Part shown: piece after piece, positions 2,836 to 54,193 of the stretch
How the letters are laid out: each line of letters starts with the position of its first letter
Position numbering within the stretch: position 1 is the first letter of the stretch
Virus record (IMG/VR): IMGVR_UViG_3300049215_000227
Location: 103,998-167,997 of that record
Length of the DNA stretch: 64,000 nt
Strand: one strand, 5' to 3'
Source: a virus
Taxonomy: Duplodnaviria; Heunggongvirae; Uroviricota; Caudoviricetes
Made by a program: the position numbers and the translations under genes
The notes under the pieces: model-generated
The model's input: only the letters and a program-made list of their open reading frames with translations
Databases searched by the model: none
Told to the model about the DNA's origin: nothing

Positions 2836-3336
2836 ATGGGCGTACAATCACAGAAAGAGGCAGTTTTTTCTGCCGTCACGTCGGTCCTGAGCGAAGCTGG
2901 AGTGAACGTGAATGAAGGCGATAACTTCGCTGATCACCTGACTCGCGAGCATCGTGCTCAAGTCACCAACATCCTCGTTGAGGGTTTCAACAGCGGCGCT
3001 ATCGAGCTGTCGAAGTCCTTCTCGAGTGAGGCTGACCTTCGCACGTATTGCTCAGGACTCACGAGCAACTGGCTCCGCAAGGACACTCGCATGAATGGCG
3101 GCACGAAGTATGTCGCTAAGAATCCGGGTTCCCGCGTCGGTTCCTCTGATCCCCAGCTGAAGGCGATGCGAATGCTTCTCAGCACGAAGACTGATCCGGC
3201 TGAACGCGCTGAGATCCAGTCCTTCATCGACTCCCGCGTCTCGGAAGTGAAAGCTTCCAAGAAGCCTGCTAAGTCGATTGACTTCAGCGCGCTCCCTGCT
3301 GAGCTCGCCTCGAAGTACAGCTCGAGCAACAGCTAA
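2836..3336 (+). CDS. paralog-family A protein (C-terminal SIDFSALPAELASKY motif)
   Basis: ATG at 2836 after GGAGGGA. Clear paralog of 7102..7509 (shared LRTY(C/V)SGL(T/I)SNW(L/V)RKD..(M/L)NGG and DPQLKA(M/L)). The C-terminus carries the SALPxELxxKY motif also found at 5412..5603 and 35471..35776. Confidence 0.55.
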   Translation: MGVQSQKEAVFSAVTSVLSEAGVNVNEGDNFADHLTREHRAQVTNILVEGFNSGAIELSKSFSSEADLRTYCSGLTSNWLRKDTRMNGGTKYVAKNPGSRVGSSDPQLKAMRMLLSTKTDPAERAEIQSFIDSRVSEVKASKKPAKSIDFSALPAELASKYSSSNS

Positions 3337-11341: not shown

Positions 11342-11662
11342 TTAGACAGAAAAACTTGAACCGCAGCCGCAGCTCTTCTTGGCGTTTGGATTGGTGAAGG
11401 TGAAGCCTGTTCCGTTGAGTCCATCGCTATGATCAAGCAAAGTTCCAGCTAGGAATATGTTGCTTTTAGAGTCGATCACGACCTTGATATCACCGTCTAC
11501 TACAAACAGCTTATCCCTGTCTGTAACCGTAGCTGGATCTACCCATTCTAGCTTATAGCTAAGACCCGAGCATCCGCCTCCCATAACGGAGACGCGCAAG
11601 GCCTTATCGCCTTCTCTTAGCGATCTTAGTTTTTGCGCTGCCGCGACGGATACGGAGATCAT
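11342..11662 (-). CDS. Fe-S cluster A-type carrier (IscA/ErpA/HesB family)
   Basis: 106 aa with GGGCSG...CGCGSSF, the three conserved Cys of A-type carriers. Confidence 0.7.
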   Translation of the reverse strand: MISVSVAAAQKLRSLREGDKALRVSVMGGGCSGLSYKLEWVDPATVTDRDKLFVVDGDIKVVIDSKSNIFLAGTLLDHSDGLNGTGFTFTNPNAKKSCGCGSSFSV

Positions 11663-11671
11663 CTCTCTATT

Positions 11672-13498
11672 TTACAGCGAGCATATGCCAGAAGCACAAT
11701 CGTCTACCACTTCTAGATCGGTAGCGTGCTTCTCGGTGAAGCGTACCTTAGCCTCGTCGATGCTGATTGGGGTTAGAGGAGGTGGTTCTACCGTGCCGTC
11801 AGCTCTCACCATGCCTCTGGTGCCATCTCTATAGAAGGTAGTCCCCTTCAAATGTGGTAAGTATTCCAACCACAGCTTCTCGACTTCCTCTATAGGATAA
11901 TCGTGAGCGATGTTGATGGTTTTGGATACGGCATTATCTACGTGCTTCTGGACGATCTTTTGGACCTCCATGTGATCCCTAACAGATAGGTCGTGCGAGC
12001 CAATGAAGTGATCAACTGGGCGACCCTCTCTCATGAACTGCTCGAAGAGTGGGTGAAACACTAGCTCCATCTTGCGCTCTTCCTTATCCCAGTAGCGACG
12101 CTCATAAGCTGGAGCAAACATAGGTTCAATACCTGAGCTACAGTTGCCAGAAAGAATAGAGACAGTTCCAGTTGGTGCTTGAGTAAGGATGCAGCAGTTG
12201 CGAATGCCATGCTCAGCCACGAGGGAACGAATCTTGGCCGGCATGCGCTTCATGAAGCCAGACTCAATGTGCTTATCTGGTTGACAAAGAGGGAATGCAC
12301 CCTTCTCCACAGCCAGCATGATAGATGCTTCGTACGCAGCTTTAGAGATGAAGCGATACAGCTTATCAATGAATTTGTTGCCTTCCTCAGAGCCATAACG
12401 AAGTCCAAGAATAGCCAAAGTATCAGCTAGTGCAGTTGTTCCTAAGCCGATGCGGCGAAGAGCTTGGCTCTTGGCCTTCATCTCAGGTAGAGGATACGAG
12501 TTAACAGAGAGAACATTGTCGAGAAACCTAACAGCAGTACGAATAGTATTGCCAAGCAGAGCATAGTCAATACTGCCATTATTGATAAAACGAGTGAGAA
12601 CAAGATGTCCAAGGCAGCAACAATCGTACGCGCTGAGAGCGATCTCACCGCATGGGTTAGTCGTGACCAGAGGCTCGATGTACCAGATGTTTGATTCACT
12701 CTCTACGAGCTCCCAGTTAAGAAATCCAGGCTCGGCGCAGTTGTATGCGTTGTGAACGATGGTGTTCCATAGGTCACGAGCCTTCACTGTTCTCTTATAC
12801 TTACCCTTCCACACGAGTTCCCAGTCCCCATCGTTCTTGACTGCCTTAATGAACTCCTTAGTGTGCTTGGAGCGAACGGATACGTTGGCGTGGGTAAGCT
12901 CACCTTTATTTAACTTAGCGTTCAAGAACTCCTCAACGTCAGGATGGTCTAAGTCTAAGCTGAACATAAGTGCAACGCGACGTTGTCCACCGTTCCGAAC
13001 TGGGTCTGCGCAGTTGTCAATGAGACGCATGAGCTCGACCGCACCAGGCGCAACGCCTTTCTGACCGCGAATCTCGGCACCCTTAGGGCGAACGTCTGAG
13101 AAGTCGTCGCCGCATCCACCGCCAGTCATAGAAGTAACGATCATGTTGAACGCAGACTTACCCCATCCCTCTTTAGAATCCTTGGCAGGATCAAGGACGA
13201 AGCAGTTAAGCAGTTGAGGATTGGTGCGACCCGAGTTGTACCAGATGCGTCCGCCAGGAACAAACAGGTTTGCCGCTAGGATATTGTAGAACTTCTCTCT
13301 GTATTGCTGCTGCTTCTCCGGAAGTTCAGCAATAGACATCTGCTGAGCGACGCGAGCACAAGCTTCCTCCCACGTCTCAGTATCAGTAAATGCGTATCTG
13401 TCTTTGAATATGGTTAGAGAAAAGCCGGTCGGGGAGAAATTAGTTACCACTGATGCCGCTCCACTAGAATTTGTTGTCATGCGAAAGGTATAAATCAA
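11672..13498 (-). CDS. nrd: ribonucleotide reductase (probably class II, NrdJ-like, monomeric)
   Basis: 608 aa with the TNPCGEI active-site Cys motif and a C-terminal CxxC-type tail. No beta-subunit gene nearby, hence the class II guess. Confidence 0.7.
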   Translation of the reverse strand: MIYTFRMTTNSSGAASVVTNFSPTGFSLTIFKDRYAFTDTETWEEACARVAQQMSIAELPEKQQQYREKFYNILAANLFVPGGRIWYNSGRTNPQLLNCFVLDPAKDSKEGWGKSAFNMIVTSMTGGGCGDDFSDVRPKGAEIRGQKGVAPGAVELMRLIDNCADPVRNGGQRRVALMFSLDLDHPDVEEFLNAKLNKGELTHANVSVRSKHTKEFIKAVKNDGDWELVWKGKYKRTVKARDLWNTIVHNAYNCAEPGFLNWELVESESNIWYIEPLVTTNPCGEIALSAYDCCCLGHLVLTRFINNGSIDYALLGNTIRTAVRFLDNVLSVNSYPLPEMKAKSQALRRIGLGTTALADTLAILGLRYGSEEGNKFIDKLYRFISKAAYEASIMLAVEKGAFPLCQPDKHIESGFMKRMPAKIRSLVAEHGIRNCCILTQAPTGTVSILSGNCSSGIEPMFAPAYERRYWDKEERKMELVFHPLFEQFMREGRPVDHFIGSHDLSVRDHMEVQKIVQKHVDNAVSKTINIAHDYPIEEVEKLWLEYLPHLKGTTFYRDGTRGMVRADGTVEPPPLTPISIDEAKVRFTEKHATDLEVVDDCASGICSL

Positions 13499-16674: not shown

Positions 16675-17706
16675 ATGAAAAAGATTATGTTCTTCTTAGT
16701 TGTGCTTCTTGTTGCTTGTCCTCGAGCCATGTCAGATTCGTCTAAGGAGTGGCCGTGCAACAGGTTCATCAAGAACTGGGGCATCTGCAACACTAACAGG
16801 GTGCAGAGTGACATCCACGCTGTAGAGTCGTGGAAGCTTACCCGTCCCAGCAAGAAGGTTGTTGTGGCTGTCATCGACACGGGCGTGTCTGAGGGTCATA
16901 GAGACCTCGCGAGTACCATCTGGATTGATCAGGATGAGCTTAAGCGGCATCGTACTGTGTATGGATGGAACTTCGTTACAGATCAACCTAACCCGTTAGA
17001 CGATCACGGACACGGCACCCACATTGCTGGCATCATCGCTGCTGACTATGACTCAAAGACTGGGGTCTCTGGTGTAGCGCCAGGTGTTCAGATCATGTCC
17101 GTCAAGTACTATTCAGACGCGAATCCTGGGTCTGTCAACCTGCGCAACACGATCAAAGCTATCAACTACGCCGTAGAGCACGGCGCGCAAATCATCAACT
17201 ATAGCGGAGGTGGACCTGAGTTCAACGAGGACGAGTATTTGGCCCTTAAAAAGGCAGAATCTAAGGGAATATTGGTTGTGGCTGCAGCTGGCAACGAGCA
17301 TCAGGATGTGGACTTAGTGGAAAACTACTACTACCCGTCTGCGTATCGTCTCTCTAACATCATCTCGGTCGCAGCAATCGACATCAATAACAACCTGTTG
17401 CCGTCGTCCAACTACGGAAAATCTAGGGTAGATATTGCTGCGCCCGGAGAAAACATCTACAGCACGCTGCCCGGTCAGAGGTTCGGATATATGAGTGGAA
17501 CTTCACAGGCAACAGCCTTTGTTACAGGTGTCGCTGCTCTACTTAAGTCTTGCAACTCGCGACTTAGTCCAACTCAAATTAAGTCGATCATCCTTGAGTC
17601 TGCATACAAGATTCCGCAGATGAGCGACAGAGTTGCCACTGGAGGAAGGGTTGACGCATATCGCGCGTTGAAGCTTGCTCACGATCGCCACATGTGCGTG
17701 AGGTAA
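16675..17706 (+). CDS. secreted subtilisin-like serine protease (S8)
   Basis: Signal peptide MKKIMFFLVVLLVA. Catalytic triad motifs VAVIDTGV (Asp), HGHGTHIAGIIAA (His), GTSQATAFVTG (Ser). Confidence 0.75.
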   Translation: MKKIMFFLVVLLVACPRAMSDSSKEWPCNRFIKNWGICNTNRVQSDIHAVESWKLTRPSKKVVVAVIDTGVSEGHRDLASTIWIDQDELKRHRTVYGWNFVTDQPNPLDDHGHGTHIAGIIAADYDSKTGVSGVAPGVQIMSVKYYSDANPGSVNLRNTIKAINYAVEHGAQIINYSGGGPEFNEDEYLALKKAESKGILVVAAAGNEHQDVDLVENYYYPSAYRLSNIISVAAIDINNNLLPSSNYGKSRVDIAAPGENIYSTLPGQRFGYMSGTSQATAFVTGVAALLKSCNSRLSPTQIKSIILESAYKIPQMSDRVATGGRVDAYRALKLAHDRHMCVR

Positions 17707-21109: not shown

Positions 21110-21403
21110 TTGATGTCTAGACGTCAAACGTCCAGGGTTGTCCCTGGCGCTCCTACAATTTCACGACGCAGGGATCGAGCAACGGCGGCTCATCTGGCTC
21201 ATAACCAGAAAGGTGTACTAGATTCGACTTCTAGCCCTGCAACCATTCCACCAAAAGACGATATCACCATGGTATATGCCTTGAAACTGCTCAAGGTTTT
21301 ACTGTGGAAACTAGGCATTATCAAAGCTACCCCTGATGAGATGGAGTTCTTCCTTGCGCTGATAAGCGCTGACGAGATCTATTACGCTAGGAAGTTTACA
21401 TGA
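21110..21403 (+). CDS. hypothetical protein
   Basis: 97 aa. Confidence 0.3.
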   Translation: MMSRRQTSRVVPGAPTISRRRDRATAAHLAHNQKGVLDSTSSPATIPPKDDITMVYALKLLKVLLWKLGIIKATPDEMEFFLALISADEIYYARKFT

Positions 21404-22565: not shown

Positions 22566-22755
22566 CGTTCACAGCTCGGTAAGTCACGTCACGTTCGTGG
22601 CGGACTACTGCCCCAACACGTTCGAGGTGAACGGGGTACAAGCTGAACATAGCGGTCATGAATTGCCTCCAACAGAAGTCTGGATGGAGAACGCTCTCAG
22701 TCACGCGCGTGACTTGATGAGGAGAAAAGTCGAATGCCAATCAAGGGAGTCTTAA
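22537..22755 (+). CDS. hypothetical protein
   Basis: 72 aa. Confidence 0.35.
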   Translation: MAKIRFKGTNVHSSVSHVTFVADYCPNTFEVNGVQAEHSGHELPPTEVWMENALSHARDLMRRKVECQSRES

Positions 22756-23939
22756 ACAAAGCCCGTGTACCAGTCAAGATCTGGTCTGACATTTCCACTG
22801 TGGAAAGCGCTGCGTTGGATCAGCTCACCAACACAGCAAACTTGCCATTCGTCTTTAAGCACGTTGCGGCCATGCCAGACGTGCATCTCGGCAAGGGAGC
22901 AACTGTTGGATCTGTTATTGCTACTAAAGGTGCTATCTGTCCGGCAGCCGTCGGAGTTGATATCGGCTGCGGGATGGCAGCAGTACGTACCGACTTGGAC
23001 CCAAACGTCGTCCGCGACAAGATCACAGCAATCCGACTCTCGATTGAAAGGTCAATACCAGTCGGTCACGAAGGCAATAATAAGCTTACAAAGTCCGTCG
23101 AGCAGTGGAAGCTCTGGCAAGACTGGCAAAACCTAACCGTTATTGGTCACAACTCTTCAGACACAGCCGACATGTACAAGCGCGCTCGATCGCAGCTTGG
23201 CTCGTTGGGTGGAGGCAATCACTTCATTGAGATCTGCCTTGATACTCAGGACAGAGTGTGGGTGATGCTGCATTCTGGCTCCCGCAACGTGGGTAAGGTT
23301 GTCGCTGAGCGCCACATCGATAAAGCTAAGGACCTCATGAAGACAATGTTCATCAGTCTTCCTGACCCTGACCTAGCGTACTTTGCTCAGGGAACCCAAG
23401 ACTTCCAGAACTATCTGGCTGATCTTGAGTGGTGCCAGGAGTATGCTGCTCAGAACCGCAGGGAGATGATGCAGCGCGTTCTTAAGGATCTCAGCTACGC
23501 CGTGTACGGCGAGGACGGTCAGATCAACACTGATGTCAAGGTTAACTGCCACCACAACTACGTATCGAGGGAAGCCCACTATGGAGAAAACGTCCTCGTC
23601 ACAAGAAAGGGTGCTGTCAGAGCAAGAGAAGGAGATCTTAGTATTATCCCTGGTTCCATGGGTACTCGCTCTTACATCGTACGGGGACTTGGCAACCAGG
23701 ATTCGTTTTGCTCGTGCAGTCACGGTGCCGGCCGCGCAATGTCTCGTGGCGAGGCTAAGCGTACTTTCACTCTCAAGGATCTCGAAGAGCAAACTCGAGG
23801 GGTCGAATGCAGAAAGGACGAGGGAGTGCTTGACGAGATACCAGGAGCTTACAAGCCGATTGATCAGGTTATGGCAAACCAGACGGACCTCGTTGAAGTC
23901 CTTCATGAGCTACGACAGATAATGTGTATCAAGGGATGA
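22734..23939 (+). CDS. rtcB: RtcB-family RNA ligase (3'-phosphate/2',3'-cyclic phosphate RNA ligase)
   Basis: 401 aa with GGGNHFIEIC, CHHNY, and metal-binding His residues in RtcB order. The length is typical. Confidence 0.8.
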   Translation: MPIKGVLNKARVPVKIWSDISTVESAALDQLTNTANLPFVFKHVAAMPDVHLGKGATVGSVIATKGAICPAAVGVDIGCGMAAVRTDLDPNVVRDKITAIRLSIERSIPVGHEGNNKLTKSVEQWKLWQDWQNLTVIGHNSSDTADMYKRARSQLGSLGGGNHFIEICLDTQDRVWVMLHSGSRNVGKVVAERHIDKAKDLMKTMFISLPDPDLAYFAQGTQDFQNYLADLEWCQEYAAQNRREMMQRVLKDLSYAVYGEDGQINTDVKVNCHHNYVSREAHYGENVLVTRKGAVRAREGDLSIIPGSMGTRSYIVRGLGNQDSFCSCSHGAGRAMSRGEAKRTFTLKDLEEQTRGVECRKDEGVLDEIPGAYKPIDQVMANQTDLVEVLHELRQIMCIKG

Positions 23940-29601: not shown

Positions 29602-29789
29602 TGTGGGACGACTACGAAGGTTGGATTTACCACAATAAAGACGAAGAGCACTGGGAGCGATTTCGAGACAGCAAGATATACATAGTTCATAACTTATTAG
29701 ATTTCTTATTTAAACTAAGAATTATGAAGGATGTAGAAACGCATTACGACGCTGCGGGCTTCGTAGATAGGCACTGGAAACATGAATGA
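29601..29789 (+). CDS. hypothetical protein
   Basis: 62 aa. Confidence 0.3.
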   Translation: MWDDYEGWIYHNKDEEHWERFRDSKIYIVHNLLDFLFKLRIMKDVETHYDAAGFVDRHWKHE

Positions 29790-30237
29790 GCGCAGAAAGA
29801 TTTTCTTCTGGAACGAGCGTGATAAGTACGGCGCCTTCTCCAATTTTCATGAGGGTCCGTATGACATCGACGGCAAGTCGTGGCCGACTACGGAGCATTA
29901 TTTTGCAGCTCAAAAGACCATGGACGAGTCTGAGAGGGAAGCTATTCGGAAGGCGGCAACTCCGCTAGACGCTAAGAGGATGGGCAGAGTCGTTAAGCTT
30001 CGTCCTGACTGGGATAAGGTGAAGTACGACGTCATGCTAACAGCTCTTAGAGCTAAGTTTGGCAGCTCTCAAGAGCTCAAGAAGTTGCTCCTATCTACCG
30101 AAGATGCCCTGGTTTACGAGGACTCACCTTACGACAAGGTGTGGGGAACTGGAGTTCGCGGTGGCGTTGGCTCGGGTCAAAACCTACTAGGTAAAGCTCT
30201 CATGCAGGTGAGAGAGGAGTTGAGGAATCAATGCTGA
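29782..30237 (+). CDS. NADAR-domain protein (YbiA-like)
   Basis: FFWNERDKYGAFSNFHEGPYDIDGKSWPTTEHYFAAQK is the NADAR signature (FSNF...W.T.EHYFQA.K). Confidence 0.6.
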   Translation: MNERRKIFFWNERDKYGAFSNFHEGPYDIDGKSWPTTEHYFAAQKTMDESEREAIRKAATPLDAKRMGRVVKLRPDWDKVKYDVMLTALRAKFGSSQELKKLLLSTEDALVYEDSPYDKVWGTGVRGGVGSGQNLLGKALMQVREELRNQC

Positions 30238-30389: not shown

Positions 30390-30406
30390 TGAGCTTGGAC
30401 CTGTCC

Positions 30407-30496
30407 GTCGGTTACGGGGCAGAGCCTTATAAGCTCTTTAAGCACTAGATTAGTGTTGCACGAGGGTTCGACTCCCTACAGGTCTACCAACTTTAT
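30407..30496 (+). tRNA. class II tRNA (90 nt, long variable arm), anticodon loop CUUAUAA (UAU)
   Basis: Acceptor GGACCTG/CAGGTCT, A73 with CCA encoded. Anticodon stem AGAGC/GCTCT. Variable-arm hairpin CACTA/TAGTG. T-arm GAGGG-TTCGACT-CCCTA. Isolated from the main array. Confidence 0.4.
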
Positions 30497-31301: not shown

Positions 31302-31324
31302 AACTCGAATCTGAAACAATAATT

Positions 31325-31368
31325 GGCCCGCTACAGGAGTTTTCTTGTGGCGGGCTTTCATTTTTGGA
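31325..31368 (+). terminator. rho-independent terminator
   Basis: GCCCGC...GCGGGC hairpin followed by TTTCATTTTT. Confidence 0.5.
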
Positions 31369-31441
31369 GGCGAGAAATGCCGTCAATTAGTGTCAATCCG
31401 CAGCGATATAGTAGTCCCCCTAACCCTCAGAAAGGAAACAG

Positions 31442-32681
31442 TATGGATTTTCGTAAAGTGAAACTCATCTCCCTGCTCATCGCAGGCACGGTGGGCTTGT
31501 TCTTGCTCGTAAGCGTCGGGCGAGGACTTGTTGGAACCAACAACGCAGGTTTTTATCAGATCAAGCAGGCGGCAGTGACCGGAACGATGACCGTCATCGA
31601 CCAACCCGGCTCCTACGCTCGCTTGTTCGCAGACATCCACACGTACCAAATCTCCGACATGCACTACTTCTCCAAGAGCAACTTGGACGGTGGTGGCGGA
31701 GATGAGTCAAGTCCTATCCACGTTCGATTCAACGATGGTGGTACCGCAGACATCAGCGGCGCTATCAAGTATCGCTTGCCAGCAGACGACGCGAAGCGAC
31801 TCAAGATTCATCAAGACTTCAAGTCCTACGAAGCGCTCAAGCACGACTTGATTCGTCAGACCGTATCAGAAGCTATGATGCAGACTGCGACTCTCATGAA
31901 GGCAGAGGAATCGTATTCCACTCGCCGCTCTGAGTTCACGTCGCTCGTGGAAGACCAGATCAAGAACGGCATCTACGATGTTACCGCTCGAGAAGTCAAA
32001 ACCAAGGACGCAGATGGAAATGAGCTCGTGGACCATGAAGTCTTCGTTAAGCGAGACGAGAAGGGTAATCCCGTCATCCGCAAGCCTTCTCCCCTGAATA
32101 CCTACGGCATTGAAGTCGTATCCTTCACCATTAAGGAGCTTGACTTCGATCAGACCATCGAAGCTCTGATCCAGAAGAAGAAGGAAGCTGAGCAGCAGAA
32201 GGTTGTGGCTCGCGCTAACGCTGAGAAAGCTAAGCAAGACGCTATCACCGCTCGCGAGCAAGGTAACGCCAAGATCGCGACTGAGAAAGCTGAGCAAGAT
32301 GTCCAGAAGATCAAGGAAGTTACGATCGCCGAGAAGCAGTTCGAGGTTGCCCAGCTCAAGCGCAAGCAAGCTGAGCAGGATGCCCAAGCTGCCATCACCA
32401 ATGGTAAAGCTGAAGCTGAAGTTAACCGCTTGAAGGTTCAAGCTGGCTTGACTCCGCTCGAGCGCGCTACCATCGAGAAGGAAACTGCCATCGGCGTTGC
32501 TGCAGAGCTCGCTAAGGTGCAGTTCCCAGGCATGATGGTGCTGGGTGGAAGTGGCGGCAGCGCCATGAATCCCTTCGACGCTGTAGGTCTCGAGAGCTTC
32601 ATGCGCATCAGCAGCAAGCTGAGCAAGCAGCACGTCGGTCAGACCGGTAAGAACTCTGGTTCTGCCAACGACGGTGAGTAA
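31442..32681 (+). CDS. SPFH/band-7 (stomatin/HflK-like) membrane protein
   Basis: N-terminal transmembrane helix, an SPFH-like core, and a long Ala/Lys/Glu/Gln coiled coil (QKKKEAEQQKVVARANAEKAKQD...). RBS AAAGGAAAC. Confidence 0.6.
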
Positions 32682-48719: not shown

Positions 48720-48726
48720 CCAGATT

Positions 48727-49023
48727 GAGACGAGCGAGGATATCGCGAGCCTTCCCAGGTTCGAGGAACTTCGCGGCTGCAAGAGCGACGTAGTGGATAA
48801 CGACCACCCACCGTGAGGTGAGCGACGGCTACAGAGACGAGTCGGCGAAAGCCGGGTGAAACGAGCGACAGCGTACGCGCAGCAACTGGAAATAGGTAAG
48901 CAGTGCTCCTGCTCGGAGGGCTTACGGGTACCAGGCTTGAGGCCAGAAGTAATTCTGGTCCTAGAGGGATGATGTCCTCCGCCGCACACACGGCGAAGAC
49001 AGAACCGCGGGTATTGCTCGTCT
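48727..49023 (+). ncRNA. rnpB-like: candidate RNase P RNA-like ribozyme (reduced type-A-like, about 297 nt)
   Basis: Terminal helix GAGACGAGC / GCUCGUCUC. GAGGAUAUCGCGAGCC resembles CR-I (GAGGAAAGUCCGGGCUCC), with compensating changes in an ACAGAACCGCGGGUAUU element resembling CR-V (ACAGAACCCGGCUUA). The 3' third runs parallel to E. coli M1 P15-P18: AAAUAGG...GCUUGAG-CCAG...CUGG-CCUAGA-UGAUG..UCC...ACAGAACC. The P3 and S-domain regions appear shortened. Confidence 0.4.
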
Positions 49024-49035
49024 CAAACAAATTTT

Positions 49036-49120
49036 GGAGAGTGAACTGATACGGGTTATCAGAGCCGCCTTGAAAGCGGATGGCTCCGCAAGGAGTAGGG
49101 TTCGAGTCCTTCGCTCTCCG
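49036..49120 (+). tRNA. tRNA-Ser(TGA), class II
   Basis: Acceptor GGAGAGT/GCTCTCC, G73 + CCA. Anticodon loop CTTGAAA. Long variable arm. T-loop TTCGAGT. Confidence 0.55.
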
Positions 49121-49225
49121 CCAAGTTGGGAGAAAGTTCCGGTTCGACTCCGGAGATAAGCCCACCGCCAGGTAACGCTGTTGGGTGGCCTAGTGTAACG
49201 GTTGCACGTCTCCCGTGCATTTTAT

Positions 49226-49313
49226 GGAAGGTTAACCGATACGGGTTATCGGCACTGCCTCGAAAGCAGATGGCTCCTGAATAGGGAGTGGGATTCGAGT
49301 TCTCAGCCTTCCG
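49226..49313 (+). tRNA. tRNA-Ser(CGA), class II
   Basis: Acceptor GGAAGGT/GCCTTCC, G73 + CCA. Anticodon loop CTCGAAA. Long variable arm. T-arm TGGGA-TTCGAGT-TCTCA. Homologous to 49036..49120. Confidence 0.55.
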
Positions 49314-49442
49314 CCAGGATTTATATGAGTGGCAATCAGTACAATAGTTTGCATGATCTTTTAAGTATGTTAGTAGCGTTGAATATCGTTGATAGGCAAG
49401 ACTTTGAATTAATGATAGACAAAGCTTATGATCAAGTTAAAT

Positions 49443-49530
49443 AGAGAGTGAACAGGTGAGGTCACCTGGCATGCCTGGAAAGCATTGCGCTCCTCGAAAG
49501 GGGAGTTCGTTTCGAGTACGACGCTCTCTG
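49443..49530 (+). tRNA. tRNA-Ser(GGA), class II
   Basis: Acceptor AGAGAGT/GCTCTCT, G73 + CCA. D-stem CAGG/CCTG. Anticodon loop CTGGAAA. Variable-arm hairpin CTCC..GGAG. Confidence 0.55.
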
Positions 49531-49538
49531 CCAGGTTT

Positions 49539-49745: not shown

Positions 49746-49810
49746 CCAAACCTGCTCGCGATGTGGAGCTAAGAGGTTCGGTAAGTATCCAGAAGAATGC
49801 AGTGGGATTT

Positions 49811-50140
49811 ATGAAGAAGAAAACAAAGATGTTCAGCGTGACCGCAGCGGATTGCCGCTGGGACGTCTTCCGCGGAAGCGGAGACGGAGGTCAGAAAAAG
49901 CAAAAGACGTCAAGCGGTGTCAGGTGCGTCCACGAGCCAAGCGGAGCCGAGGGAAAAGCAACCGACAGCAGAGAGCAAAGTAAGAACCGCAGGACAGCTT
50001 TCGAGAGGATGGTTAAGACACCAGAATTTCAGAGCTGGTTGAAGTTAAAGATTGAAGCTGGTCTTGGCAACGTAGAGATTGAAGAGACCACAGACAAAGG
50101 AAATAAGATTACCCGCAAGCTGGGTATGGAAGAAGTTTAA
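49811..50140 (+). CDS. ArfB-like peptidyl-tRNA hydrolase (class I release-factor GGQ domain)
   Basis: RGSGDGGQKKQKTSSGVRCVH matches GSGPGGQxVNKxSSAVRL of ArfB/RF, followed by a basic C-terminal tail as in ArfB. Confidence 0.5.
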   Translation: MKKKTKMFSVTAADCRWDVFRGSGDGGQKKQKTSSGVRCVHEPSGAEGKATDSREQSKNRRTAFERMVKTPEFQSWLKLKIEAGLGNVEIEETTDKGNKITRKLGMEEV

Positions 50141-51227: not shown

Positions 51228-51295
51228 GGTCCCACCTGTGGATAGGTACTTAGCCTTCTAAGCTGAGGAAGTAGGTTCGACTCCTACTGGGACTA
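51228..51295 (+). tRNA. tRNA-Arg(TCT), compact 68-nt form
   Basis: Acceptor GGTCCCA/TGGGACT, A73 + CCA. Reduced D-arm. Anticodon stem TTAGC/GCTGA, loop CTTCTAA. T-arm GTAGG-TTCGACT-CCTAC. Confidence 0.45.
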
Positions 51296-51373: not shown

Positions 51374-51381
51374 CCAAGTTT

Positions 51382-51449
51382 GTCCCCGCCCGAGGATGGG
51401 TCGTTGGTTTCCTAAACCGACAAAGCCGGTTCGACTCCGACCGGGGATA
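51382..51449 (+). tRNA. tRNA-Arg(CCT), compact 68-nt form
   Basis: Aligns position-by-position with 51228..51295. Acceptor GTCCCCG/CGGGGAT, A73 + CCA. Anticodon stem TTGGT/ACCGA, loop TTCCTAA. Confidence 0.45.
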
Positions 51450-51457
51450 CCAGATTT

Positions 51458-51543
51458 GGAGAGTGAACTAGGGAGGTCCCTGGTCTTGTTTGCTAAACAA
51501 TGAGCTCCCGCAAGGGAGTGCGTTTCGAGTACGCCGCTCTCCG
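51458..51543 (+). tRNA. tRNA-Ser(GCT), class II
   Basis: Acceptor GGAGAGT/GCTCTCC, G73 + CCA. D-stem CTAG/CTGG. Anticodon loop TTGCTAA. Long variable arm. Confidence 0.55.
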
Positions 51544-51620
51544 CCATAATTCAACTCACAAGTCGTAAAAATACAGGATCCCTGGAGAGATTTGATTTAC
51601 TCAACTGGTAAAATGTAGCG

Positions 51621-52813: not shown

Positions 52814-52888
52814 GGCGCGTTCGTCTACGCTTGGCTAGGATACTTGGCTTTCAACCAGGAGAACCGGGATCGACACCCGGCCGCGCTT
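52814..52888 (+). tRNA. tRNA-Glu(TTC) with non-canonical T-loop AUCGACA
   Basis: Acceptor GGCGCGT/CCGCGCT (6/7 paired) + T + CCA. Anticodon stem CTTGG/CCAGG, loop CTTTCAA. T-arm CCGGG-ATCGACA-CCCGG. Confidence 0.45.
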
Positions 52889-53596: not shown

Positions 53597-54193
53597 ATGG
53601 GTTGCGATATCCACATGTTCCTGGAGTACCGCTGCGGTAACGGCATGCCTTGGCAAGCCGACGACCACCACGTTCCTACGTGGGAGAGTCGCTGCAAGGA
53701 CGACGAGCCGGACAACAAGGAAAAGTGGTGCGACCATTGTCTTAACGACGGTGACCAGCAAATCTACTGCGACAGCGGTTATCTAGACTTCCGCCAGATC
53801 GATGCAACGACTCGAGACTATGGTCTCTTTGGCTTACTTGCCAACGTAAGATCTAGCGGACCGCGCGACCCGCGAGGTCTCCCAGAAGACGTAAGCGACA
53901 TGATCAAGGCGGCTGCAGACAAGTGGGACTCTGACGGCCACTCTCACTCCTTCATGACTCTTGAGGAGTTTAAGAATGTCCTCCTCGAAGAGGCAAAGTA
54001 TCCTGTCTCAACTAGCGACGTTGCCTTCTATGAGTGGGAAGACTTTGAGCGCGGCAAGTATCCGCCATCCTTCACTTCAATCATTAACTACGCAGAAAAA
54101 CTGAAACAAGAGAAGAGCATCGATAAACATCTCCTTGGAGAAGGCACGACGTCTGAAGTCCAAGTAAGAGTTGTATTTTGGTTTGATAACTGA
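53597..54193 (+). CDS. hypothetical protein (Cys/His-rich N-terminus)
   Basis: 198 aa with CDIHMF...CKDDEPDNKEKWCDHC. Confidence 0.4.
   Translation: MGCDIHMFLEYRCGNGMPWQADDHHVPTWESRCKDDEPDNKEKWCDHCLNDGDQQIYCDSGYLDFRQIDATTRDYGLFGLLANVRSSGPRDPRGLPEDVSDMIKAAADKWDSDGHSHSFMTLEEFKNVLLEEAKYPVSTSDVAFYEWEDFERGKYPPSFTSIINYAEKLKQEKSIDKHLLGEGTTSEVQVRVVFWFDN

What the first reader, a model, noticed from the sequence alone, without database searches (positions are those of the whole stretch)
49125..49225. Split or permuted tRNA-like element: a 3' half (T-arm plus GCCCACC-G-CCA) lies upstream of a 5'-half-like acceptor/D-arm segment
Between two intact Ser tRNAs there is a T-arm hairpin (TCCGG-TTCGACT-CCGGA) followed by GATAAGCCCACCGCCA, which reads as a 3' acceptor strand with discriminator and CCA but has no tRNA body upstream. 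Immediately downstream, GGTGGCC-TA-GTGT-AACGGTT-GCAC looks like a 5' acceptor strand plus D-arm, and GGTGGCC pairs 6 of 7 with GCCCACC. This could be a circularly permuted or split tRNA, or a decayed pseudogene. A second T-arm-first arrangement at 57722-57852 makes a recurring architecture more plausible.
Basis: inference. Interest (0 to 1): 0.55.

Follow-up and report, generated by a model that had tools for sequence, protein, structure and literature searches.

The report
Y-RNA-like tRNA mimic in phage tRNA array
The odd "back-to-front tRNA" is a conserved small RNA that folds like a tRNA with its acceptor end sealed and no anticodon, the same design as the tRNA-like part of bacterial Y RNAs (YrlA), here sitting without its usual Ro60 partner gene inside the tRNA gene cluster of a large uncultured phage.

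Summary
At 49128-49214 a T arm precedes a D arm, and the two "acceptor" strands pair.

It is not a split or permuted tRNA gene, and it is not a decayed pseudogene. It belongs to a conserved family of circularly permuted tRNA-like RNAs with this layout: closing stem, 4-nt variable region, T arm, capped acceptor-like hairpin, UA, D arm, closing stem.

I found 14 members. They include the second window site (57751-57835) and an ortholog of this element between the same two Ser tRNAs in a related contig.

- **Covariation:** 97% of cells are paired against 69% in shuffles, and 15 of 19 pairs show double changes. The tertiary 15-48 pair switches G-C/A-U without exception.
- **The "CCA":** it lies inside the capped hairpin, aligns with GCAG of a distal hairpin in relatives, and is absent from the ortholog.
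- **Link to YrlA:** a covariance model built only from tRNA-array members finds genuine YrlA Y RNAs beside Ro60 genes. One family member passes Rfam's YrlA threshold. This element does not, has no room for a Ro60-binding stem, and has no Ro60 gene nearby.

Most likely it is a non-decoding tRNA mimic that acts as a protein-binding scaffold or decoy. I rate it a new variant of a known kind, of moderate interest.

The parts
49124..49127 (+). 5' spacer AGUU, directly after the CCA of tRNA-Ser(UGA). It is the start of the generic CCA-AAGUU spacer used throughout the array.
49128..49133 (+). Closing stem, 5' strand GGGAGA (the anticodon-stem analogue). It pairs with 49209-49214.
   Evidence: MFE fold; covariation of helix 1, with all 7 pairs showing double changes
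49134..49137 (+). Variable-region analogue AAGU. U49137 corresponds to tRNA position 48 and partners A49198 (position 15).
   Evidence: The 15-48 pair is CG in 7 members and UA in 7, with no exception
49138..49154 (+). T arm: UCCGG-UUCGACU-CCGGA.
49155..49190 (+). Acceptor-like capped hairpin.
- Outer pair G49155-C49190.
- AUAA bulge at 49156-49159.
- GCC/GGC and ACC/GGU stems.
- Distal hairpin CAG-GUAACG-CUG.
- It contains the fortuitous GCCA at 49167-49170.
   Evidence: Fold of this stretch alone, -12.2 kcal/mol; alignment with the hairpins of E2, L161b, L162 and L091; the AUAA bulge is shared with ortholog L161 5727-5822
49191..49192 (+). UA, the analogue of tRNA positions 8-9.
   Evidence: U8 is invariant in all 14 members
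49193..49207 (+). D arm: GUGU-AACGGUU-GCAC, with the GG of the D loop.
   Evidence: the same stem occurs in ortholog L161
49208..49214 (+). G (position-26 analogue) followed by the closing stem 3' strand UCUCCC.
49215..49225 (+). Trailer GUGCAUUUUAU, which is the 5' leader of tRNA-Ser(CGA). It is homologous to the trailers of the other members (GUGUUUUUAAUGU and similar).
57722..57852 (+). Second member (E2), between tRNA-Pro and tRNA-Ile.
- Leader with hairpin, 57722-57748.
- Core 57749-57837: closing stem AGCUGAG/CUCGGCU, AGAC, T arm, 36-nt hairpin capped by GAAA, UC, D arm.
- Trailer follows the core.
   Evidence: 66.6 bits; positional homologues in L015, L017, L020, L023, L159, L161 and L164
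49036..49123 (+). Flanking tRNA-Ser(UGA). Its 3' processing would define the 5' end of the element.
49226..49316 (+). Flanking tRNA-Ser(CGA). RNase P cleavage at its 5' end would define the 3' end of the element.

Best explanation
Window 49128-49214 encodes a small structured RNA. It is a circularly permuted tRNA mimic of the same design as the tRNA-like module of bacterial and phage YrlA Y RNAs.

**How it most likely works.**
- It is transcribed with the phage tRNA array.
- It is released by the enzymes that mature its neighbours. 3'-end processing of tRNA-Ser(UGA) sets its 5' end. RNase P cleavage at the 5' end of tRNA-Ser(CGA) sets its 3' end.
- It folds into a tRNA-like L shape. The T loop and D loop form the elbow, and a 15-48 Levitt pair locks the core.
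- The acceptor arm is a closed hairpin. The 'anticodon stem' is just the paired 5' and 3' ends.
- It therefore cannot be aminoacylated or decode.

It most likely acts by occupying or recruiting a protein that recognises tRNA shape, as YrlA is thought to do. The most plausible setting is RNA repair or RNA quality control, since the phage carries RtcB, a Band-7 protein and its own RNase P RNA. A decoy role against a host factor is the alternative setting.

**Shown here (computationally):** the anatomy, conservation, covariation, similarity to YrlA, and genomic context.

**Inferred:** co-transcription, the processing steps, the three-dimensional fold, and the partner and role.
For: **Fold.** The four-way junction is recovered by the unconstrained fold.

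**Family.** There are 14 members in large-phage contigs related through a VTC protein of 57-82% identity, and in more distant loci.
- L161 5727-5822 is an ortholog of this element between the same Ser(tga) and Ser(cga) tRNAs.
- L162 5018-5102 lies after RNase P RNA and a Ser tRNA.

**Covariation.**
- 97.2% of cells are paired against 69.4% in shuffles.
- 15 of 19 pairs show changes on both sides.
- The covariation score is 0.768 against 0.248 in shuffles (0 of 500 reach it). Slid partners score 0.10-0.20.
- The tertiary 15-48 pair is CG in 7 members and UA in 7.
- Acceptor-like hairpins are capped by GAAA, GCAA or UUCG tetraloops.

**Model R1**, built from six Pro-Ile-position elements only:
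- finds this element full length at 38.9 bits, E 1.6e-9;
- finds the known YrlA locus upstream of Bxz1 Ro-like gp220 at 34.7 bits, where Rfam YrlA also hits;
- gives 74 hits at 26-51 bits in 58 viral Ro60 loci, most of them 0.2-1 kb upstream of the Ro60 gene on its strand.

**Rfam link.** Member L027 4608-4733 passes Rfam YrlA at 76.4 bits against a gathering score of 69. It sits beside a TROVE/vWA Ro60 gene, RtcB, RtcA and Band-7.

**Literature.**
- YrlA has the order T, acceptor-like hairpin, D, and a covarying Levitt pair (PMC4201824).

**Window context.** RtcB at 22734-23939 and Band-7 at 31323-32681. RNase P RNA at 48726-49029.
Against: - Rfam YrlA gives no hit to this element or to E2 at E<=10, nor to the L161 and L162 orthologs at E<=5.
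- There is no room for a Ro60-binding stem, and no GNCGAAN0-1G motif.
- No TROVE protein was found among the 19 window ORFs of 250 aa or more, nor in the precomputed Pfam lists for the loci of up to +/-10 kb fetched from the relatives.
- R1 also scores ordinary tRNA-dimer junctions up to 38.2 bits. The model score alone therefore does not separate this element from dimers. The closing stem, the continuous hairpin and the absence of flanking tRNA bodies do.
- This copy has a weak acceptor-like arm, with 1 bp before a 4-nt bulge.
- The Ser-Ser position is occupied in only 3 of about 8 related genomes, so it is dispensable.
- The pair counts were made on an alignment I fitted by hand to the structure.
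- No expression data exist.
Confidence: 0.72

Rival explanations
1. It is a genuine permuted or split tRNA gene. The transcript would be circularised or trans-joined, perhaps by the phage RtcB. RNase P and a 3' nuclease would then open it at the acceptor to give a working tRNA ending in the encoded CCA.
For: - The 3'-half-before-5'-half order is real.
- GCCCACC-G-CCA faces GGUGGCC.
- RtcB is encoded in the window.
- M. smegmatis YrlA is cut by RNase P and receives CCA (PMC4201824).
Against: - There is no anticodon loop. Joining the ends leaves a 15-nt junction without U33, and ARAGORN finds no tRNA even with introns allowed.
- The CCA is not conserved in the L161 ortholog or in any other member, and it aligns with a hairpin stem.
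- Five unpaired bases separate the T stem from that 'acceptor'.
- RNase P products (5'-P, 3'-OH) are not RtcB substrates (established enzymology).
- The 4-nt leader AGUU and the 11-nt trailer leave nothing that could form a BHB motif.
Confidence: 0.03
2. It is a non-functional relic. Two neighbouring tRNA genes lost their outer halves, leaving the T arm of one and the D arm of the next. This particular copy may be decaying.
For: - Ordinary tRNA dimers give similar model scores.
- The D arm resembles that of tRNA-His, and the E2 closing stem resembles the tRNA-Asn anticodon stem.
- The Ser-Ser copy is absent from several relatives.
- Its acceptor-like arm is irregular.
Against: - Compensatory changes between this copy and its L161 ortholog occur in the closing stem and the T stem.
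- There is family-wide covariation, including the tertiary pair.
- The linker is a continuous hairpin, capped by a tetraloop in most relatives.
- A relic origin (the dimeric-tRNA model of Sim and Wolin, cited in 10.1101/312249) does not exclude present function.
Confidence: 0.12
3. It is a processing or punctuation element. A tRNA-shaped signal would recruit RNase P, possibly the phage's own RNase P RNA encoded about 100 nt upstream, or RNase Z. This would organise cleavage of the polycistronic tRNA precursor, or titrate the enzyme, without a role for the released RNA.
For: - The order RNase P RNA, tRNA-Ser, element, next tRNA is conserved in the window, L161 and L162.
- Several members have an exact 7-bp acceptor-like stem (L015, L027b, L159). 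That is the feature that made M. smegmatis YrlA an RNase P substrate (PMC4201824).
Against: - The flanking tRNAs already carry their own RNase P and 3'-end signals.
- This copy and many others have bulged or long acceptor-like arms, which are poor RNase P substrates.
- The Pro-Ile copies lie far from the RNase P RNA gene.
Confidence: 0.12
4. It is an intrinsic terminator or attenuator. The hairpin UGCACG-UCUCC-CGUGCA (49204-49220) followed by UUUUAU would stop or modulate transcription inside the array.
For: A perfect 6-bp palindrome is followed by a U run.
Against: - The hairpin competes with the D arm and the closing stem, and the MFE fold does not use it.
- It is absent from the L161 and L162 orthologs.
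- U-rich trailers are the generic spacer of this array.
Confidence: 0.02

Closest known systems
YrlA (Y RNA-like A; Rfam RF02553), tRNA-like module
   Same: - The same permuted cloverleaf: end-to-end helix, variable region, T arm, closed acceptor-like hairpin of variable length, D arm.
- The same conserved tertiary nucleotides: U8, A14, G18-G19 and the T loop.
- The same G15-C48 / A15-U48 switch.
- My model of the array elements finds bona fide YrlAs beside Ro60 genes.
- One family member passes the Rfam threshold.
- YrlA is also linked to RtcB and Band-7 loci.
   Different: - No Ro60-binding stem or GNCGAAN0-1G motif.
- No Ro60 gene nearby.
- Embedded as a unit in a tRNA array, with two paralogous positions.
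- The T and D stems vary (UCCGG/CCGGA and GUGU/GCAC here), where YrlA has nearly invariant GCGGG/CCCGC and GCUC/GAGC.
- No Rfam hit for this copy.
Mycobacterium smegmatis YrlA (cut by RNase P, CCA added)
   Same: An acceptor-like hairpin that can be read as a 7-bp acceptor stem. In this copy an encoded G-CCA follows the 3' strand.
   Different: - The CCA here is not conserved.
- The stem is separated from the T stem by a bulge.
- No evidence of cleavage.
Circularly permuted tRNA genes of Cyanidioschyzon merolae and some archaea
   Same: The 3' half lies upstream of the 5' half. [quoted passage not shown]
   Different: - Those genes regenerate a full tRNA with an anticodon loop, through BHB cleavage and ligation.
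- Here there is no anticodon loop, no BHB motif and no splicing endonuclease context.
- This is a bacterial virus.
[quoted passage not shown]
   Same: A tRNA-shaped non-coding RNA proposed to work with RtcB and Band-7. The window carries RtcB, Band-7 and an odd 93-nt tRNA-like gene next to Band-7.
   Different: The b7a-tRNA has the normal tRNA order with an anticodon arm. The present element is permuted and lies 17 kb away from the Band-7 gene.
Two-piece (permuted) tmRNA genes
   Same: A T arm plus 3' acceptor strand lies upstream of a 5' acceptor strand.
   Different: - No tag reading frame and no pseudoknots.
- No room for a coding piece.
- ARAGORN finds no tmRNA.

Membership tests
YrlA / bacterial Y RNA (RF02553) | Permuted cloverleaf: T stem-loop, then closed acceptor-like stem-loop, then D stem-loop, enclosed by a helix formed from the flanking strands. 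| tested here: met
   Sequence and fold; full-length alignment to model R1; pair counts.
YrlA / bacterial Y RNA (RF02553) | tRNA tertiary-interaction nucleotides, with a Levitt 15-48 pair that switches between G-C and A-U. | tested here: met
   - The 15-48 pair is CG in 7 members and UA in 7, with 0 unpaired. This element has A49198-U49137.
- U8, A14, the D-loop GG and positions 54-56 (UUC) and A58 of the T loop are invariant in all 14 members; loop position 57 is G in 11 and A in 3.
YrlA / bacterial Y RNA (RF02553) | Reaches the Rfam gathering score (69 bits). | tested here: not met
   - No YrlA hit at E<=10 on 49120-49230 or 57715-57856.
- Positive controls work: L027 scores 76.4 bits and Bxz1 scores 32.5 bits.
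YrlA / bacterial Y RNA (RF02553) | Ro60-binding module: a 5'/3' stem carrying GNCGAAN0-1G. | tested here: not met
   - Only AGUU (4 nt) and GUGCAUUUUAU (11 nt) separate the core from the flanking tRNAs.
- There is no CGAA.
- The E2 leader has UGCGAAAG, which matches 5 of the 6 specified bases. That is inconclusive.
YrlA / bacterial Y RNA (RF02553) | Encoded within about 4 kb of a Ro60 (TROVE) gene, on the same strand. | tested here: not met
   - No TROVE among the 19 window ORFs of 250 aa or more, nor in the precomputed Pfam lists for the loci of up to +/-10 kb from the relatives.
- A related 176.8-kb viral contig is not among the 58 viral Ro60 loci found. That search has limited sensitivity.
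- The remaining 112 kb of the source contig could not be read.
YrlA / bacterial Y RNA (RF02553) | Nearly invariant T-stem and D-stem sequences (GCGGG/CCCGC and GCUC/GAGC). | tested here: not met
   - The consensus is shown.
- This element has UCCGG/CCGGA and GUGU/GCAC.
- Both stems covary across the family.
YrlA / bacterial Y RNA (RF02553) | Binds Ro60, and is modified by TruB and DusA. | not testable with these tools
   This needs biochemistry.
Circularly permuted tRNA gene | The 3' half lies upstream of the 5' half, with complementary acceptor strands. | tested here: met
Circularly permuted tRNA gene | Joining the transcript ends restores a 7-nt anticodon loop with U33 and an anticodon. | tested here: not met
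   - The junction would be 15 nt without U33.
- ARAGORN finds no tRNA in the un-permuted sequence, even with introns allowed.
Circularly permuted tRNA gene | A conserved processing site at the acceptor (a free 3' end, with CCA encoded or added). | tested here: not met
   - The GCCA is present only in this copy.
- It aligns with a hairpin stem in the relatives.
- The acceptor-like arm is a continuous hairpin in all members.
Canonical tRNA | Detected by ARAGORN or the Rfam tRNA model. | tested here: not met
Two-piece tmRNA | An acceptor piece plus a coding piece with a tag reading frame. | tested here: not met
   ARAGORN's tmRNA search is negative. tRNA-Ser(CGA) starts 35 nt after the 5' acceptor-like strand.

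The most novel reading that the evidence does not exclude
Minimal, Ro60-independent Y-RNA-like tRNA mimics may be a regular component of the tRNA arrays of large phages.

- They would be living intermediates of the proposed birth of Y RNAs from dimeric tRNA transcripts.
- They would work with the phage's own RNase P RNA and its RtcB/Band-7 repair genes. Possible roles are a cofactor or decoy that protects the phage tRNA pool from host tRNA-targeting defences, or one that captures a host tRNA-binding enzyme.
Probability: 0.2. Interest if true: 0.75.

Novelty: new variant of a known kind. Interest (0 to 1): 0.55.

Why it matters
**For annotation.** tRNA finders skip these elements, and a naive reader takes them for broken or split tRNAs. 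They are neither.

**For Y RNA biology.**
- A version stripped of the Ro60-binding module, in genomes where no Ro60 gene was found near it, would show that the tRNA-like module can have a Ro60-independent job.
- It also offers a simple bait for finding what binds it.

**For evolution.** Its place as a 'slot' in a tRNA array, with tRNA-type spacers on both sides, fits the published idea that Y RNAs arose from dimeric tRNA transcripts.

**For phage biology.** It adds to a set of translation and RNA-repair functions carried by this phage group: about 38 tRNAs, an RNase P RNA, RtcB, Band-7, an ArfB-like factor and peptide deformylase.

Tried and rejected
**Searches for direct homologues that found nothing useful.**
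- Megablast and blastn of the region and of each element against 50,697 phage records gave nothing beyond T-arm matches to tRNAs.
- An exact-pattern scan of viral contigs for the T arm plus bulge gave no match.
- Relatives sought through ORF 53597-54193 and the RF-1 protein were only distant loci without tRNA arrays.
- The ParB-like protein had no relative above 53% identity.
- The VTC protein finally gave syntenic relatives.

**Methods that failed or needed repair.**
- Rfam on the two elements alone returned only noise.
- My first descriptor scan lost true members, because of a greedy regular expression and too strict a hairpin rule. It was corrected.
- The MAFFT alignment of full elements misplaced the closing stems (A2).
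- An N-padded alignment (A3) was unsuitable for model building, so the model was built from six real sequences (A4).
- The padded alignment A5 was used only for counting pairs.

**Readings considered and rejected.**
- Permuted tmRNA.
- A phage attP-type tRNA fragment.
- A tRNA split by an inserted tRNA, for which no complementary 5' strand exists upstream.
- A His anticodon GUG in the trailer. Position 33 is not U, and the trailer is homologous to the generic spacer.
- A terminator.

**Papers.** The two Sim and Wolin reviews (PMC10870794, PMC6047535) are not held.

Full report
**1. The observation.**

- A perfect T arm UCCGG-UUCGACU-CCGGA lies at 49138-49154.
- It is followed by GAUAAGCCCACCGCCA.
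- After a 13-nt linker comes GGUGGCC-UA-GUGU-AACGGUU-GCAC.

ARAGORN places tRNA-Ser(tga) at 49036-49123 and tRNA-Ser(cga) at 49226-49316, and calls nothing in between. Rfam's tRNA model gives no hit there, even in a 111-nt scan at E<=10.

With that helix the stretch is a closed four-way junction: closing stem, T arm, a long hairpin made of the two 'acceptor' strands and their linker, and the D arm. The unconstrained minimum-free-energy fold gives this junction, although its energy is not unusual (z = -1.27).

Its hairpin is capped by a GAAA tetraloop.

**2. What the window is.**

The window is part of a 176.5-kb metagenomic contig. It has the gene content of a large phage:
- ribonucleotide reductase, ThyX, two ClpP-like proteins, NAMPT and an ATP-dependent DNA ligase;
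- RtcB, a Band-7 protein, peptide deformylase and an ArfB-like RF-1-domain protein;
- a tRNA array between 48.4 and 59.4 kb, and two isolated tRNA-like genes upstream. ARAGORN tRNA genes in the window, and several more were found by Rfam or by eye;
- a full-length bacterial class A RNase P RNA at 48726-49029 inside the array (153 bits).

It has no near relative among deposited phages.

**3. Homologues.**

The VTC-domain protein just upstream of the array has relatives of 57-82% identity on long contigs. I fetched twelve of them. The HNH protein inside the array gave further loci.

*The Pro-Ile position (E2).* In these syntenic arrays the slot between tRNA-Pro and tRNA-Ile holds an element of the same plan in L015, L017, L020, L023, L159 and L161. 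L164 carries one between tRNA-Leu and tRNA-Thr.

*The Ser-Ser position (this element).*
- It is occupied in L161 (5727-5822, between Ser(tga) and Ser(cga)).
- It is occupied in L162 (5018-5102, after RNase P RNA and a Ser tRNA).
- The L161 copy shares this element's D arm, its AUAA bulge and its trailer, but has different and still complementary closing and T stems.
- Other relatives lack an element at this position.

*More distant members.*
- One lies in a separate 184-kb viral contig (L091).
- Two lie in L027.

**4. Structure support.**

I aligned the 14 members by hand, using N as padding so that MAFFT returned the intended columns. I then counted pairs.
- 97.2% of cells form standard pairs, against 69.4% after shuffling.
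- 15 of 19 pairs have changes on both sides.
- The covariation score is 0.768 against 0.248 (0 of 500 shuffles reach it).
- Sliding the partners by 1-3 columns drops pairing to 42-51% and the score to 0.10-0.20.
- All seven closing-stem pairs, three T-stem pairs and two D-stem pairs show double changes.
- The single tertiary pair I wrote in, tRNA positions 15 and 48, is G-C in seven members and A-U in seven, with no exception.

U8, A14, the GG of the D loop and the UUC and A58 of the T loop are invariant; loop position 57 is G or A.

The acceptor-like hairpin varies from 18 to 83 nt. It is often exactly 7 bp, and it is capped by GCAA, UUCG or GAAA in most members.

Caveat: the alignment was fitted to the structure, and the sequences are related to one another. 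The slide control and the tertiary pair argue that the signal is real.

**5. The 'CCA'.**

The GCCA of this element (49167-49170) lies inside the continuous hairpin. Aligned with the hairpins of relatives, CCGCCAGGUAACGC corresponds to:
- GCUGCAGCGGAAACG in E2;
- ACCGCAGCGAAAGCU in L161b;
- GCAGCAGCGAAAGCU in L162.

It is therefore one strand of a distal hairpin, which is GNRA-capped in those relatives. Neither the L161 ortholog nor any other member has a CCA there.

Joining the two 'halves' in silico yields no ARAGORN tRNA, with or without introns. The junction would be a 15-nt loop without U33. The GUG in the trailer belongs to a stretch homologous to the generic CCA-AAGUUU spacer of the array.

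**6. Comparison with YrlA.**

The literature describes this plan exactly.
- YrlA Y RNAs have a T stem-loop, an acceptor-like stem-loop of variable length and a D stem-loop.
- They conserve tRNA tertiary contacts and have a covarying Levitt pair (PMC4201824).
[quoted passage not shown] It also relays a model in which they arose from dimeric tRNA transcripts (bioRxiv 10.1101/312249).

I tested the link in both directions.

*From my model to known YrlAs.* A covariance model built only from six Pro-Ile-type elements (R1) gave these results.
- This element scores 38.9 bits over the full length of the model.
- The Ser-position orthologs score 58 and 41 bits.
- R1 hits the spot upstream of the Ro-like gp220 of mycobacteriophage Bxz1, where Rfam's YrlA model also hits (34.7 and 32.5 bits).
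- R1 hits 74 places at 26-51 bits in 58 viral contigs that carry Ro60. Most lie just upstream of the Ro60 gene on its strand, often in tandem.

*From Rfam to my family.*
- Rfam YrlA passes its own threshold on member L027 4608-4733 (76.4 bits against 69).
- That member sits in a textbook locus: RtcB, RtcA, YrlA, Ro60 (TROVE plus vWA_Ro60), a second YrlA-like RNA, and Band-7.
- Rfam YrlA gives weak full-length hits to L164 and L091 (26.9 and 23.9 bits).
- It gives nothing for this element, for E2, or for the L161 and L162 copies.

R1 also scores ordinary tRNA-dimer junctions up to 38.2 bits. Chen et al. raised the same caveat. Identification therefore rests on the closing stem, the continuous hairpin and the absence of tRNA bodies, not on the score.

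**7. How it differs from YrlA.**
- The core is flanked by only 4 and 11 nt, so a Ro60-binding stem with GNCGAAN0-1G cannot exist.
- No TROVE protein appears among the 19 window ORFs of 250 aa or more, nor in the precomputed Pfam lists for the fetched loci of relatives (up to +/-10 kb).
- A related 176.8-kb viral contig is not among the 58 viral Ro60 loci. This is weak evidence.
- The T and D stems vary, whereas in YrlA they are nearly invariant.
- The elements are units of a tRNA array, with tRNA-type spacers on both sides.
- The L091 member also has no Ro60 neighbour.

**8. Mechanism.**

*Shown:* the anatomy, conservation, covariation, similarity to YrlA and context.

*Inferred:*
- The RNA is made as part of the polycistronic tRNA precursor.
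- It is freed by maturation of its neighbours.
- It folds into a tRNA-like L with a sealed acceptor end and no anticodon.
- It acts through a protein that reads tRNA shape.

By analogy with YrlA, and given RtcB, Band-7 and a tRNA-like gene next to Band-7 in the same genome, a role in RNA repair or quality control is the best guess. A decoy role is the alternative.

Rivals, each rated low:
- a true permuted tRNA;
- an inert relic;
- an RNase P-directed processing signal;
- a terminator.

**9. Verdict.**

The element is a new variant of a known kind: a YrlA-type tRNA mimic without the Ro60 module, in a phage tRNA array. Interest is moderate (0.55).

The most novel reading not excluded is that these are Ro60-independent tRNA mimics typical of large-phage tRNA arrays, and living intermediates of Y RNA origin.

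Noticed in passing
window 48726-49029 (+): A full-length bacterial class A RNase P RNA (153 bits against a gathering score of 100) is encoded inside the phage tRNA array, one tRNA upstream of the element.
- It is conserved in relatives: L161 5328-5627 scores 146 bits and L162 4581-4893 scores 149 bits.
- A 2021 review of jumbo phage genomics does not mention RNase P at all (PMC7824862).
- This may be the more unusual feature of the locus.
   Followed up: partly
window 22734-23939, 29782-30237, 30397-30489, 31323-32681: The window carries RtcB, a NADAR protein, a 93-nt type-II tRNA-like gene and a Band-7/SPFH protein.
- ARAGORN calls the tRNA-like gene tRNA-Ile(tat) with an encoded CCA, but Rfam's tRNA model does not call it.
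- It lies 830 nt upstream of the Band-7 gene.
- This looks like the RtcB / Band-7 / 'b7a-tRNA' repair module predicted by Burroughs and Aravind.
   Followed up: partly
window 57539-57642 (+): The 104-nt spacer between the two tRNA-Pro genes folds into a cloverleaf-like structure of its own.
- The fold is -38.8 kcal/mol with z = -3.13, and 1 of 200 shuffles does as well.
- It has a 7-nt loop CUCACAA but no T loop.
- L161 has a long structured spacer at the same place (11560-11715).
- It may be another non-coding RNA.
   Followed up: partly
window 49447-49535, 51380-51455, 51457-51545, 58014-58092, 59320-59395; also 51228-51295 and 52814-52888: Several tRNA genes are missed by ARAGORN.
- Seen by eye or by T-arm scan: a Ser(GGA)-like type-II tRNA, a Trp(CCA)-like tRNA and others.
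- Two are found only by Rfam.
- The tRNA at 58014-58092 has no encoded CCA and an unusual anticodon loop.
   Followed up: partly
window 21167-21245 (+): ARAGORN calls tRNA-Met(cat) 1.5 kb upstream of RtcB. It is isolated from the array and is not detected by Rfam's tRNA model at the gathering score.
   Followed up: no
window 48.4-59.4 kb, e.g. 57446-57460, 57926-57934, 58006-58013, 58253-58262: Most tRNAs in the array are followed by the same spacer, CCA-AAGUU(U). The elements use the same spacer on both sides, as if they occupied a tRNA slot. It may be a processing-site motif.
   Followed up: no
window 49763-50140 (+), 60199-60702 (+); L016 11322-11705, L159 8363-8740: Translation-rescue and maturation genes lie in or beside the array.
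- An ArfB-like RF-1-domain protein.
- Peptide deformylase.
- PTH2-type peptidyl-tRNA hydrolase, in the relatives.
   Followed up: no
L027 669-8161: This is a compact canonical RNA-repair locus on a 24-kb metagenomic contig. In order it carries RtcB, RtcA, three tRNAs, HNH, tRNA-Asp, YrlA (76.4 bits), Ro60, tRNA-His, a second YrlA-like RNA, and Band-7. Y RNAs interleaved with tRNA genes fit the dimeric-tRNA origin model.
   Followed up: partly
L208-L219, about 2160-2724 (Ro60 gene starts at 3001): Up to four tandem model hits at 30-46 bits lie upstream of Ro60 genes in a group of viral contigs. This suggests arrays of Y-RNA-like tRNA mimics. They were not checked against tRNA dimers.
   Followed up: no
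L159 17155-17288: This member of the family carries an insertion of about 70 nt in the loop of an exact 7-bp acceptor-like stem. It is followed by a tRNA-like gene that ARAGORN does not call (T arm at 17347).
   Followed up: no
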